From: Paraspadella gotoi
Lineage: Eukaryota; Animalia; Chaetognatha
Direction: 5' to 3'
Assembly: GCA_051294375.1 (NCBI GenBank)
Contig: CM119271.1
Span: 11,675,896-11,739,895, forward strand
DNA length: 64,000 bases
The position numbers were made by a program, and so were the translations under genes. Within the stretch, counting starts at the first letter, position 1. Each line of letters opens with the position of its first letter. Positions 1 through 64,000 of the stretch are shown here, one piece after another. The notes under the pieces were generated by a model. It was given only the letters and a program-made list of their open reading frames with translations. It had not been told where the DNA came from and ran no database searches.

Positions 1-2031
1 AGATGGCACGACGCCGTCTGCAATGGCAATCGTTGCCATCCTCACATGATCGGCGACGATTCGATAAGCGGCGTCAACGGCGTCGGCCGCGCCGGATCCA
101 AATTCGCCAGAATATCTGAGTTTGAATTCAAGAAAAATATCTGATATCTGAGTATAATTTTCTTTTCTTTCATTCTCTAATTTTAGAATAACTAATGCGC
201 CATTTTATAGCTCGTCTCAATCTCTCTCTCTCTCTCTCTCTCCATCCTCCCCACGCCCACCTCCTCGCCCCGCTGATCCTCGCAATCTCCTCGAAAATCG
301 ACCCAAAAAGATCCGTGTCATAATTAGATGTTTTGCCCTGAACTGCGGCGACGAGACGTTCCAATCCCATCCCGGTGTCGAGGTGTCGCCGCGGCAGCGC
401 CTGCAGCGTCCCGTCGCCGCGTCGTTCTCGATCCATGAAGACGAGATTCCATAGTTCGACGACTTCGCAGCCGCCAGCGTTGACGAGTGGCGCCGCCCGT
501 CGGTCGCCGATGAGATCGTAGTGGATCTCGGTACATGGACCGCAGGGGCCAGTCTCGCCCATGTCCCAAAAATTGTCTGTGGATGAGCATCGATGGATTG
601 ATTGGCTAATTTTTTTTACAATCCACAAAAGTTTCTTCCCGACACAATTTTGAATGGTTTGGCAGATATGACGCACTTGCTCGTACGTACTCCTCTTAAA
701 CACACTTTTTCTCTCTCTCTCTCTCTCTCTCTCTCTCTCTCTCTCTCTCTCTCTCTCTCTCTCTCTCTCTCTCTCTCTCTCTCTCTCTCTCTCTCTCTCT
801 CACCTTTGAATCCACCCCACAAGAGGTGATCTGGATTGACTCCGATTTGCAACCAAATTTCTCTCGTTTCAAAATCAGGATCCAAAGCTGAAGATTCGTC
901 GCCGCCGAAACAGGTCACGTAGAGACGGTCAGCTAATGGGTAATTTATTTCACAATTAATTGTTATAATCATTAATCGTAATCATTTATCATTTTAGATT
1001 TTTACTAATTTCATTTATCTCACCGATTACTTACCCGATAAACCGTAAACACGCGTCATCAATTCCCAAGCTGACCGACAGGCGCTCATTTTGTCCACCT
1101 CTTTAAATGACCTGGAATTTTGAACAATTCGTCTTGTCCCTTGTGCAAAATACACGCAATATATATCGATATAAATTTAAATTTATATACTATTAATAGA
1201 TTGACTTACCACTTACCAAGTTCCCAGCATCTCGAAGAAAGTGTGATGGTAAGTATCTCTCCCCACATCGTCTAAGTCGTTGTGTTTCCCCCCGACGCGG
1301 ATGCATTTCTGAGAATTAACTATTTTTGGGTGGGCGGGGTCGGCGATTCCGAGGAACACGTTTTTGAACTACAAAGCAACAGAGAAAAGGTTGTTGGTTT
1401 TTTAAGAAAAAGGGAGTAAAAGGAGAGACATATTTTTAGACACGCAATTTGATTATTGAGCTTTTATTTCTGTAAAGGATTCTTTATTGACATTTTACAT
1501 TATACGCTTAGTACCGAGCGGTTGTGCAAGGCACTAACCTCTCGCAATTCTCTCCACATCCAAGCATACAACCTCACACACAAAGGTTCAATTCTTAGAC
1601 TGATTCATATTTCATAAAAGAGTTATCCTCATAATCAGGAATCGATGAACATGAAGACCACATCGACCTGATTCATTCCCGCGTTCACGAAATAAGTTCC
1701 GTCGTCTTTCTTGGGAACGACTGACGACGATGGGACGAAGCGATGACCTCGATCTGTCAAAACGAGTGTTATATTTTCAATACTTTAATATTATCATTAC
1801 ATTTTTGTTTAATTATATTTTGTTATCATTATTTCGAAACTAATAACCGGCAAAGAAGTCGATAAAGGCGGATCGCACTTCCTTCGCCGATCCGCCACCA
1901 TCGGCGGCGAGAGTCCGCCGCTGAACCGGAAGGCGTTGGGTTGAGGCGGCGAGAAAGCGGCGGCGGCGGCGGGAGGGAAAGGTAAGGAGGCGGGGTGAGT
2001 CTCGGAGGCGGAGAGAGAGAGATCGATTCAT
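1..2031 (-). CDS. AARS2: Alanyl-tRNA synthetase, mitochondrial-type; multi-exon, 3' end runs off the window
   Basis: Spliced GT-AG exons give [81 protein letters not shown] and YRIVADHVR, all AlaRS motifs. The Arg/Ser/Leu-rich N-terminus resembles a transit peptide. An upstream ATG at 2078 ([16 protein letters not shown]) would be in frame if one A were missing from a homopolymer. Confidence 0.92.
710..801. repeat. (CT/GA)n microsatellite starting at an AARS splice donor
   Basis: ~45 CT units. Similar tracts occur at 7736-7802, 16563-16591, 28577-28619 and 34415-34464. Confidence 0.95.
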
Positions 2032-2667
2032 TTTCGATCGTGAATTGAGAAACGAAGAAGAGAAGAAAGGATTTTCATCTTTGCATCGCCCCTCGTTTTG
2101 GATTCAGATTCAATTGGTCAAGCATTCACTATTTCGTCTTTTATTCAGGGAATTAGTTTTTCCTATTTCCTGCCTATTTAATCGAGTACTTTATAACGCA
2201 CTTTGGGTGTTAAATTATCGAAAACAACTAAGTAATGAGAAGAAACACTTGTTTAATGTTGATGCACGACTAATTATGGAAATTCCAAAAACGCGCTATC
2301 ATTAGAATTTCGCTTCATTAAGTTTAACTTTTTCTTAGATCAAATTTCTCTTAATTCATGTGCAAAGATTGTAACAATATTTTTCGAACCATCATTGCAA
2401 TTTTTACTACTTTTCAATCTCCATTTGCGTTGCGTAGCTGAACAATGACAATTTCGTGAATCAAACTGAAAGCATTAAGCTTAAATGGAAGAAATCACAA
2501 CAAAAAAAATAAAGCGGGTGTAACTTATATTATCATCAAAAATTTGCATAAAAGCATAAAACGCTAAAAAAAATCACCTAACGGACAAACTGGGGGGAAA
2601 AAAATCATAACAAAAAGCATCTCTTGGTTTTTTTTCTTCTTGTAATAAAAATCCGTCCGTCCGAGCT

Positions 2668-62697: not shown

Positions 62698-63858
62698 TCA
62701 TCCGACCATGAGTCTCTTCCTCCCTCGTAGCCTCACTTCCTCCAACTTAGCAAAGACTTCCACGAAAAGTTTCTTCTCGCTGTGTTTCTCGTAACTCTGC
62801 AGCAAAAGAGCGAAGAGCCTCTCAGTGTTGGGATGAGTGCTGAGGAAGGCTCTCTCCAACACGTAGAGGTCGACTCCTTTGTGTTCCGCGAGATTTTCGT
62901 GATGCGAGAGACCGAAGTCGATCAGAGTTAAGGATTCAGAGTCGGAGGGTCGAGTGAGGAGCCTGAAAAAAGCGAGAGGGGGGAAGTGGGATTCGAACTC
63001 GGCTTTGGGTTGACCTTTTGAAGGAGTCGGAGTTTTCTCTCTCAGAAAGATCAACCTAGTAGTATTCTATATGACATATACTGTAATATAACAAGGGACA
63101 TAAAAATTTCAATCATCATCATCATCATTCATCATCTAGTATTTTTTTGCAATGTTTAAGTATATCGTTTATATATATCTATGTTATCTATAGTATAGTT
63201 TAATTTGTAGTTAGTTATAGTATGTTTAATTATAACGTAACTGTTTTTCTACAATAGACTATAGAAGGAACCATTTTCAACAAAAATAATCTCAAAGAGG
63301 TTCCAAACGTAAGCAACCATTTATTTATCTAATAATTATAATTCATCACAACTGACATGTTGGACGTGGTGAGATCTCCGTGCACGATGTTCTCTCGATG
63401 CATCATCGCTAAAATCCTTCCGATTCGTCGACACACCTTCTCCAACTCCTCGTCCGCCTCGAAATTCCGTCGCGAGAGAATTAAATCTCTCACGGAAATC
63501 GCATCCGGGAAAAATTCCATTACGATCGAGTTCGTCTCTTGATCGACGAAGTAAACCGTCGGTACAGGAATTCCCGCCATCCTTTTAATAATTGTATTGT
63601 TGTATTATTAAGAAATTAATTTAAATTGATTAAATCTGATTTAACGATCGAGTCGAGACCGACTGACCGACATCGAGTGAGGGAACGGACTTCGGCCGTG
63701 ACCCGTTGTTGGGTCAAAGTTTTGTCGAGTTGCGGATGACGATATTTTTTACTGAATCGATGTTTGACCAAAGATTTTTTGCCATGAAAATCCATGGTGT
63801 AAAGTTTAGCTTCGGCGCCCTGAACGAGCGTAACGCAAGCCTCGTAAGGCGCGGTCAT
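62698..63858 (-). CDS. TP53RK: KEOPS kinase/ATPase TP53RK (PRPK/Bud32), 3 exons
   Basis: Motifs [51 protein letters not shown] and [12 protein letters not shown]. Confidence 0.96.
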
Positions 63859-64000
63859 TATGAGAGATCTGAAAGAAGAGAGGAGACTGAAAATGGAGGG
63901 AGCCTAACGTATTTTAATGACATAAAATCAAACATTAAATCCGCTCCTACGAAATTTATAGTCCCACTTATTGAACGTCAAAATACTAATAAACTAATAG

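What the first reader, a model, noticed from the sequence alone, without database searches (positions are those of the whole stretch)
1..63900. Putative giant eukaryotic operon: 19 consecutive co-oriented genes with unpaired splice acceptors before the ATGs
Seen: all 19 host genes over 64 kb are on the minus strand (chance about 2^-18 if orientation were random). Stop-to-ATG gaps are tiny: TAF1A>SF3A2 ~110 bp, CBWD>ADPRH ~130, COG5>PRORP ~180, HPS6-like>ANK-RING ~180, PRORP>RPL28 ~200, CDKAL1>HPS6-like ~260, SF3A2>caprin ~290. Many gaps contain a U-rich tract and AG shortly before the ATG: CTTTTCTCAAG|ATG (COG5), CATTACTCAG|AAATG (TAF1A), TTTTTACAG (LRRC47), CTCTTCTTTCAG (TP53RK), TTTTTTATTGCAG (ANK-RING), TTTTTCTAG (caprin), TTTCTTAAAG (LDHD). 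Some have AATAAA just after the upstream stop (CBWD, RPL28, HPS6-like). Known: this is the architecture of SL-trans-spliced operons in nematodes, tunicates, flatworms and chaetognaths, which are enriched in housekeeping, RNA-processing and mitochondrial genes as here. Inference: one or a few polycistronic units, possibly much longer than typical animal operons and continuing past both window ends.
Basis: partly seen in the sequence, partly recalled or inferred. Interest (0 to 1): 0.88.

Follow-up and report, generated by a model that had tools for sequence, protein, structure and literature searches.

The report
Arrow worm 19-gene one-strand operon chain
Nineteen genes sit head-to-tail on one DNA strand over 64,000 bases of what is very likely an arrow worm genome, and they likely form a chain of several shared transcripts cut into single messages by leader splicing, a process already known in arrow worms; whether the whole run is one record-long transcript is untested.

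Summary
The layout is real. All 19 genes lie on the minus strand, with 59 GT/GC-AG introns and no plus-strand host gene. RNA contigs splice 8 of 8 predicted introns in the stretch tested. Acceptor-like AGs are only mildly enriched (8 of 19 against 4.3, p about 0.03).

The genome is very likely a chaetognath. Three of the five closest relatives of the window's RPL28 begin with the translation of published chaetognath spliced leaders. Leader-resolved operons are known there: 18% of genes, longest nine (PMC12460157). A Spadella BAC already shows 14 of 14 named host genes on one strand over 120 kb (PMC2481426, Table S5).

No leader was seen on this window's own contigs. TP53RK's contig starts exactly after its AG, while three others run through theirs. 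Best reading: several operons in a row. One 64-kb transcript is unproven. Long one-strand gene blocks in an animal were not found described in the searches run.

The parts
62698..63858 (-). TP53RK/Bud32 kinase, 3 exons
   Evidence: model; PDB E 1e-13; both introns spliced in RNA
63869..63880 (-). Acceptor before TP53RK; RNA cover begins exactly at 63868, the first base after the AG, with nothing upstream
62325..62664 (.). Small inverted-repeat element (MITE-like) in the TP53RK>CDKAL1 gap; makes up most of the 547 nt
   Evidence: arms 43 nt, 72%; high repeat depth
59895..62150 (-). CDKAL1 tRNA methylthiotransferase, 5 exons; indels in exon 2 relative to RNA
57243..59637 (-).
   Evidence: Pfam and PDB blank
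55952..57061 (-). Single-exon ankyrin + RING protein; contig 55653-57136, genomic to its end
40225..55479 (-). 1184-aa gene 5, 4 exons, 11.3-kb third intron (PEAK1/NKF3-pseudokinase-like by eye, recalled, untested)
   Evidence: open model; contig length 3155 fits the spliced model ending at the TCG repeat at 40742; Pfam and PDB blank
41642..51233 (+). Nested mobile elements in gene 5 intron 3: long inverted arms around a decayed GC-rich plus-strand element with RT-like motifs (DIRS-like by eye, recalled)
   Evidence: Pfam and PDB blank
37564..39462 (-). TAF1A; acceptor 2 nt before the ATG (score 10.4)
36456..37454 (-). SF3A2; 109 nt after the TAF1A stop; the gap's only canonical poly(A) signal starts 26 nt before this ATG
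31506..36167 (-). Caprin, 10 exons
27413..30338 (-). COG5; AG directly before the ATG, and ATTAAA 16 nt before a second acceptor at 30431
22897..27231 (-). PRORP/MRPP3, 9 exons; triple AATAAA at 27285-27270, then acceptors at 27248 and 27242 (poly(A) site and acceptor nearly coincide)
22020..22696 (-). RPL28 (132 aa); best acceptor 58 nt before the ATG; orthologues carry chaetognath leaders about 49-70 nt before their ATG
20160..21715 (-). CBWD/ZNG1 (CobW)
17834..20027 (-). ADPRH/ARH1, 6 exons; 132 nt after the CBWD stop
13804..17405 (-). VPS41; start matches relatives P0250/P0251; a 6-codon upstream ORF and no AG between it and the start
11102..13054 (-). ZRSR2-like CCCH protein
8809..10688 (-). 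LDHD-like FAD oxidase
5041..8377 (-). RAD21/REC8-like kleisin
2668..4669 (-). LRRC47-like LRR protein; acceptors 14 and 107 nt before the ATG
1..2031 (-). AARS2-like alanyl-tRNA synthetase, runs off the window

Best explanation
This is a block of 19 same-strand genes in what is very likely a chaetognath (arrow worm) genome, and it likely consists of several operons in a row, each predicted to be transcribed from one promoter and cut into single mRNAs by poly(A) cleavage behind each gene and spliced-leader addition at an AG before the next. Shown: genes, strand, spacing, cis-splicing, RNA of neighbours nearly abutting at three junctions, and chaetognath leaders on RPL28 orthologues. Inferred: the lineage of the window itself (from RPL28 kinship), leader addition to this window's own mRNAs, and shared precursors. 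Likely cores by spacing are CDKAL1-HPS6-like-ANK/RING-gene 5, TAF1A-SF3A2-caprin, COG5-PRORP-RPL28-CBWD-ADPRH-VPS41 and ZRSR2-LDHD-REC8-like-LRRC47. Some of these may be joined where late poly(A) signals sit close to the next acceptor (caprin>COG5, VPS41>ZRSR2). The most likely internal promoter is between gene 5 and TAF1A.
For: (1) RPL28 exon 1 against 1.84 billion representatives: 5 hits at 67-71% identity (E 4e-22 to 1e-15); next best E is 1e-11 at 49%. Three of the five start with MG-EANFYYFTCLK, MG-EAYNSVVSICLK and MG-VSICLN. These are the frame-2 translations of published leaders SL3.2, SL2.8 and the SL2 3' end (PMC2481426 Table 3). None of the other 147 of 150 hits shares more than 4 residues with any leader translation. 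In a 61-row tree, one 98% branch separates the window, these five and P0294 from 53 other rows; a long spurious row lies on the window's side. (2) Window RPL28 is 132 aa, 14,487 Da; Spadella L28 is 132 aa, 14,440 Da. (3) Chaetognath leaders end in AAA, not G (P0253's ...CL-N needs T or C after it). The TP53RK contig's genomic part starts exactly at the first base after the AG, with no cover upstream, which is where such a leader would join. (4) RNA-defined gaps: HPS6-like>ANK-RING about 66 nt uncovered, ANK-RING>gene 5 56 nt with low cover, CDKAL1>HPS6-like covered except 7 nt. (5) TAF1A>SF3A2 (109 nt) and COG5>PRORP leave little or no room between poly(A) signal and next ATG, as in the Spadella RPS14-PCNA operon (3 nt between poly(A) site and acceptor). 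(6) Acceptor enrichment 8 of 19 against 4.3. (7) In Paraspadella gotoi nearly half of genes are trans-spliced and 18% lie in operons enriched in housekeeping genes.
Against: No leader is visible on any of the window's own contigs. Records 1-3 align from their first base. The HPS6-like and gene 5 contigs run unspliced through their candidate AGs. The deep (425x) ANK-RING contig starts 11 nt upstream of its predicted exon start, with genomic letters. The CDKAL1 contig breaks inside the coding sequence. 45 of 55 loose ends were not shown, and the tool states that contigs cannot show starts; assemblers may drop short leader branches (my knowledge). The poly(A)-signal-to-acceptor coupling is weak: 5-7 of 19 gaps against 2.9-5.1 expected, p 0.04-0.25. 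Five genes lack a near acceptor free of upstream ATG. Only 5 of 19 gene starts were tested with RNA, from one run whose RNA status is a guess. The VPS41 tree put the window and two unnamed relatives on a long branch among molluscs, and held no named chaetognath.
Confidence: 0.62

Rival explanations
1. The whole run (and more beyond both ends) is one polycistronic unit, like a trypanosome directional gene cluster, with one promoter region and every mRNA released by leader splicing.
For: 19 of 19 genes on one strand. 14 of 14 named host genes on one strand over 120 kb in a Spadella BAC, where all four minus-strand rows are transposons. Most long gaps hold a late poly(A) signal near the next gene, or an inserted element.
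Against: No promoter data. Longest P. gotoi operon reported is nine genes under a 250-bp rule. Gene 5>TAF1A has about 460 nt between the last canonical signal and the acceptor. An 11.3-kb intron with mobile elements lies inside the run. Contig depths differ from 22 to 425, though the tool warns that depth cannot rank genes. The BAC table lists only predictions with a SwissProt match.
Confidence: 0.18
2. Each gene has its own promoter, in or just behind the upstream gene's 3' end. Some mRNAs get a leader as monocistronic transcripts, and the shared strand reflects a bias against opposed neighbours rather than shared transcripts.
For: Four contigs show no leader, and three include genomic bases upstream of the candidate AG. 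In P. gotoi most trans-spliced genes are not in operons (10,197 trans-spliced against 3,565 in validated operons). 13 of 18 gaps exceed 250 nt stop-to-ATG.
Against: Gaps of 109-200 nt must also hold a 3' UTR and poly(A) signal. RNA covers the CDKAL1>HPS6-like gap almost without a break. It gives no reason for 19 of 19 on one strand.
Confidence: 0.17
3. The AGs belong to ordinary cis introns in 5' UTRs, or are chance matches in T-rich 3' UTRs, in an animal without trans-splicing.
For: 22% of non-start ATGs in the same gaps (76 tested) also have a good AG within 60 nt. Two of the 8 good acceptors have a donor-like site upstream.
Against: RPL28 orthologues carry chaetognath leaders. 6 of 8 good acceptors have no good donor in the gap. 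No joint into a 5' UTR exon was seen among 13 joints.
Confidence: 0.03

Closest known systems
Chaetognath spliced-leader operons (Spadella cephaloptera RPS14-PCNA, PMC2481426; Paraspadella gotoi, PMC12460157)
   Same: Same phylum (inferred); head-to-tail housekeeping genes with very short gaps; poly(A) signal close to the next acceptor at some junctions; same leader families on RPL28 orthologues; long same-strand block as in BAC 35A21.
   Different: 19 genes in a row against a reported maximum of nine per operon. Whether the run is one unit or several is open. Leader addition is not shown for this window's own mRNAs. The species is not identified: its RPL28 differs slightly in mass and pI from Spadella cephaloptera's.
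Tunicate operons (Ciona intestinalis, Oikopleura dioica)
   Same: One non-specialised leader system; little or no DNA between poly(A) site and acceptor (Ciona median 1 bp, up to seven genes; PMC7986045 passages); Oikopleura rule of 500 bp or less (PMC11067885 passage), which 13 of 18 gaps meet.
   Different: Different phylum and leader sequences; the run here is longer than those operons.
Nematode SL2 operons (Caenorhabditis elegans)
   Same: Predicted coupling of 3' end formation and leader addition.
   Different: Chaetognaths are reported to have no operon-specific leader; gaps here are not a uniform 100 bp.
Trypanosomatid directional gene clusters
   Same: Long blocks of unrelated genes on one strand in an organism with leader splicing.
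   Different: Genes here have 59 cis introns; only about half of chaetognath genes are reported as trans-spliced; genome-wide strand blocks and absence of internal promoters are untested.

Membership tests
Chaetognath SL-resolved operon | Organism is a chaetognath with spliced leaders | tested here: met
   Indirect: 3 of the 5 nearest RPL28 relatives begin with translated chaetognath leaders; 98% branch. No named chaetognath protein was aligned to the window.
Chaetognath SL-resolved operon | Two or more same-strand genes less than 250 bp apart | tested here: met
   5 of 18 gaps are 250 nt or less even stop-to-ATG; RNA-defined gaps of about 7, 56 and 66 nt. Not met or unknown for several other gaps.
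Chaetognath SL-resolved operon | Leader on the mRNA of at least one member gene | tested here: inconclusive
   No leader visible on 5 contigs, 45 loose ends hidden; TP53RK contig starts at acceptor +1; leader seen only on orthologues.
Chaetognath SL-resolved operon | Leader sequence absent from the locus | tested here: met
   Best match to the last 20 nt of 4 leaders has 4 or more mismatches on either strand.
Chaetognath SL-resolved operon | Poly(A) site next to the downstream acceptor | tested here: inconclusive
   5-7 of 19 gaps against 2.9-5.1 expected, p 0.04-0.25 over six settings.
Chaetognath SL-resolved operon | One promoter and a polycistronic precursor | not testable with these tools
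   Needs cap, chromatin or nascent-RNA data; contigs across a gap show no single transcript.
Nematode SL2-type operon | Dedicated leader for downstream genes | not testable with these tools
   Reported absent in chaetognaths; P0254 and P0256 carry different leaders on a near-identical 5' UTR.
Nematode SL2-type operon | About 100-bp gap with a shared U-rich element | tested here: inconclusive
   Gaps are T-rich (0.36-0.46 in bins 21-200 nt upstream), but only low-complexity A/T words are shared; no distinct motif.
Trypanosomatid directional gene cluster | Long strand-uniform block of unrelated genes | tested here: met
   19 of 19 over 64 kb; local only.
Trypanosomatid directional gene cluster | Genome-wide blocks with promoters only at block ends | not testable with these tools
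   No genome held for this window; no promoter data.
Trypanosomatid directional gene cluster | All mRNAs trans-spliced and genes nearly intron-free | tested here: not met
   59 cis introns; 5 genes lack a near acceptor free of upstream ATG.

The most novel reading that the evidence does not exclude
Arrow worm chromosomes are built from trypanosome-like one-strand gene blocks of 60-120 kb or more, read as very long polycistronic units (here 14-19 genes or more, about twice the longest operon reported for the phylum), and the published 250-bp rule cuts these units into small operons. Two independent loci show it: this window (19 of 19) and a Spadella BAC (14 of 14).
Probability: 0.25. Interest if true: 0.82.

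Novelty: new member of a known kind. Interest (0 to 1): 0.5.

Why it matters
As several operons in a row, this is an instance of what is already published for arrow worms. What remains is scale. The genome paper's main text never uses the word 'strand' and caps operons at nine genes, yet two loci from the phylum show unbroken one-strand blocks of 14-19 host genes. If such blocks are genome-wide and mostly promoter-free, an intron-rich animal would have converged on the gene layout of trypanosomes. That bears on how operons grow and why leader splicing spreads. The data types needed (assembly, Iso-Seq, ATAC-seq) are reported for P. gotoi, so the question can be settled by computation.

Tried and rejected
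- No whole genome is held, so strand-run statistics and a search for leader genes were impossible.
- RNA could be laid only on 54100-64000, so the starts of the other 14 genes are untested. No run is on record as RNA and all are contigs. Runs X2 and X3 gave one short piece each.
- Xenoturbella was considered from composition (43% GC, PMC11521371 passages) and dropped after the leader evidence.
- CDKAL1 homologues and the VPS41 tree (quick search, 49 of 120 listed hits used) did not name the lineage.
- The word-based RPL28 search found nothing, although HMMER did.
- 12 metagenome VPS41 loci were all distant, so synteny in relatives was not tested.
The protein atlas gave no answer.
- Rfam gave 4 sub-threshold hits and no leader RNA or snRNA. 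No tRNA. The bacterial promoter scan is irrelevant here.
- Upstream ATGs are not depleted near starts (13 against 7.6 in the last 60 nt); this fits either removal by splicing or tolerance, so it was not used.
- The names HPS6-like, PEAK1-like and DIRS-like could not be confirmed.
- Earlier scan notes: none for this genome; four from other genomes were not used.
- The glass sponge paper (PMC10282587 passages) says nothing on strand blocks.
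Full report
**1. The observation.** I read the whole window and built exon models by coordinates. 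There are 19 host genes, all on the minus strand, with 59 introns, all GT-AG or GC-AG, median 176 nt. 18 of 19 translate without internal stop. CDKAL1 has stops in exon 2, where the RNA contig shows three small indels, so these are probably assembly errors. Pfam or PDB support 17 of 19. The 'HPS6-like' gene and a 1184-aa gene 5 have no hit. Plus-strand ORFs outside exons are AT-rich noise or part of a decayed element in the 11.3-kb intron of gene 5. Stop-to-ATG gaps are 547, 257, 181, 472, 762, 109, 288, 1167, 181, 200, 304, 132, 428, 749, 413, 431, 371 and 636 nt.

**2. The acceptors.** A matrix built from the 59 internal acceptors finds a good AG within 60 nt of the ATG, with no ATG between, for 8 of 19 genes against 4.3 in 1000 dinucleotide shuffles (p 0.03). 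Across 12 variants p was 0.015-0.15. The same test is met by 7% of 124 intron ATGs, 10% of 83 antisense ATGs and 22% of 76 other ATGs in the gaps. Six of the 8 have no good donor upstream in the gap. A poly(A) hexamer 10-40 nt before an acceptor occurs in 5-7 of 19 gaps against 2.9-5.1 expected (p 0.04-0.25). The signal is real but modest and not universal.

**3. RNA.** One run (X1, contigs, RNA by guess) holds the region. On 54100-64000 it splices 8 of 8 predicted introns in minus-strand sense; 5 of 13 joints are repeats or another organism. The five 5' ends are mixed. The genomic part of the TP53RK contig begins at 63868, the first base after the AG, and nothing covers the sequence upstream; joint length and depth arithmetic agree. 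The HPS6-like contig starts 18 nt behind the CDKAL1 stop and runs unspliced into its coding sequence. The ANK-RING contig starts 11 nt upstream of its predicted exon start and about 66 nt from the end of the HPS6-like RNA. The gene 5 contig starts 56 nt from the ANK-RING contig and reads through its AG. The CDKAL1 contig breaks inside the coding sequence. No leader is visible, but 45 of 55 loose ends were not shown, and the tool states that contigs cannot show starts.

**4. The organism.** Named CDKAL1 and VPS41 homologues are at most 74% and 51% identical. Two unnamed VPS41 proteins at 73-75% group with the window on a long branch inside Lophotrochozoa. RPL28 settled the lineage. HMMER found five relatives at 67-71%. 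Three are open frames that run in from the transcript's 5' end and begin MG-EANFYYFTCLK, MG-EAYNSVVSICLK and MG-VSICLN. These equal the frame-2 translations of chaetognath leaders SL3.2, SL2.8 and the SL2 3' end printed in PMC2481426 Table 3; none of the other 147 hits shares more than 4 residues. The MG probably comes from a template-switch adapter (recalled). The other two relatives are genomic and leave the frame at the same place as the window's intron. The window's RPL28 has the same length as Spadella L28 and a mass within 0.4%, but is not identical in mass or pI. The window is thus very likely a chaetognath, species not determined, and one of its genes is leader-spliced in relatives, about 49-70 nt before the ATG against 58 nt for the window's best AG. 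Chaetognath leaders end in AAA, which fits a TP53RK contig that stops matching at the G of the acceptor; a start site there would fit too.

**5. How it most likely works.** Shown: layout, cis-splicing, near-abutting RNAs, leaders on orthologues. Inferred: polymerase reads through several genes, each mRNA is cleaved and polyadenylated behind its hexamer, and the downstream RNA is rescued by leader addition at the next AG. The tightest junctions (TAF1A>SF3A2, COG5>PRORP, CBWD>ADPRH, HPS6-like>ANK-RING, PRORP>RPL28) are the best candidates. With a 500-nt stop-to-ATG rule the run splits into blocks of 4, 3, 6 and 4 genes plus TP53RK and AARS2. An inserted element explains most of the TP53RK>CDKAL1 gap, and late poly(A) signals could close caprin>COG5 and VPS41>ZRSR2. 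Gene 5>TAF1A is the likeliest internal promoter. I give 0.62 to several operons in a row, 0.18 to one unit, 0.17 to separate promoters and 0.03 to no trans-splicing.

**6. What is known.** PMC12460157 (abstract, passages, section 5 and three PDF supplements searched): 10,197 of 21,072 P. gotoi genes are trans-spliced, 18% lie in operons defined by gaps under 250 bp, the longest has nine genes, and there is no operon-specific leader. Its spreadsheet supplement could not be read and may list these genes. PMC2481426 (passages, sections 12 and 13, supplement 2 whole, first part of supplement 3): an RPS14-PCNA operon with 3 nt between poly(A) site and acceptor, and a remark that other genes on BAC 35A21 are clustered and co-oriented. 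My count from Table S5 is 14 of 14 named host genes with a stated strand on plus over positions 99-119,826. I left out one row without strand, one tyrosine recombinase row and the transposon rows; all four minus rows are transposons; the table lists only predictions with a SwissProt match. PMC7986045, PMC11067885, PMC2566580, PMC2020476, PMC10282587 and PMC11521371 were seen as passages only; alignment files and one .doc supplement could not be read.

**7. Novelty.** Leader-resolved operons in chaetognaths are known, so this is a new member of a known kind. I found no paper describing long one-strand gene blocks in chaetognaths or another animal in nine searches (listings only, except where read), and the genome paper's main text has no occurrence of 'strand'. 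The library lacks most subscription papers. The open and testable point is whether these blocks are genome-wide and promoter-poor. Interest 0.5; novel case probability 0.25, interest 0.82 if true.

Noticed in passing
window 41642-51233: Nested mobile elements in gene 5's 11.3-kb intron: inverted arms of about 900 nt (85-100% alike) around a decayed plus-strand element whose longest frame (44370-45479) has RT-like motifs resembling DIRS retroelements (recalled; Pfam and PDB blank). It is the only plus-strand coding-like sequence in the window.
   Followed up: partly
window 18083, 18504, 21203, 33212, 34797, 48947, 49867, 52351: A 14-nt motif holding an octamer-like word occurs 8 times (0 in 100 shuffles), all in introns and on both strands; probably the end of a small transposon family.
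   Followed up: partly
window 61644-62012: CDKAL1 exon 2 is out of frame in the assembly; the RNA contig shows three small indels there, so the assembly has local errors.
   Followed up: partly
window 17405-17457, 57061-57066, 2031-2087, 13054-13136: Short upstream ORFs or out-of-frame ATGs lie close to the starts of VPS41, ANK-RING, AARS2 and ZRSR2; upstream ATGs are not depleted near starts. Unexplained.
   Followed up: partly
window 32445 and 16081: Two GC-AG introns (caprin, VPS41) among 59.
   Followed up: no
window 30357-30403: A 19-nt unit repeated 2.5 times just before the COG5 acceptor and ATG; could be a protein-binding site or a promoter element.
   Followed up: no
window 51793-51978 and 59194-59237: A near-perfect 68-bp hairpin (weak sub-threshold Rfam miRNA hits, probably a MITE) and a short very high-copy repeat in an HPS6-like intron.
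   Followed up: no
proteins P0253, P0254, P0256: Spliced leaders survive as translated N-terminal peptides in metatranscriptome protein sets; this can name the phylum of unnamed proteins and show trans-splicing without DNA.
   Followed up: yes
window 56746-56898: Run X3 (another organism) holds a diverged orthologue of the ANK-RING gene.
   Followed up: no
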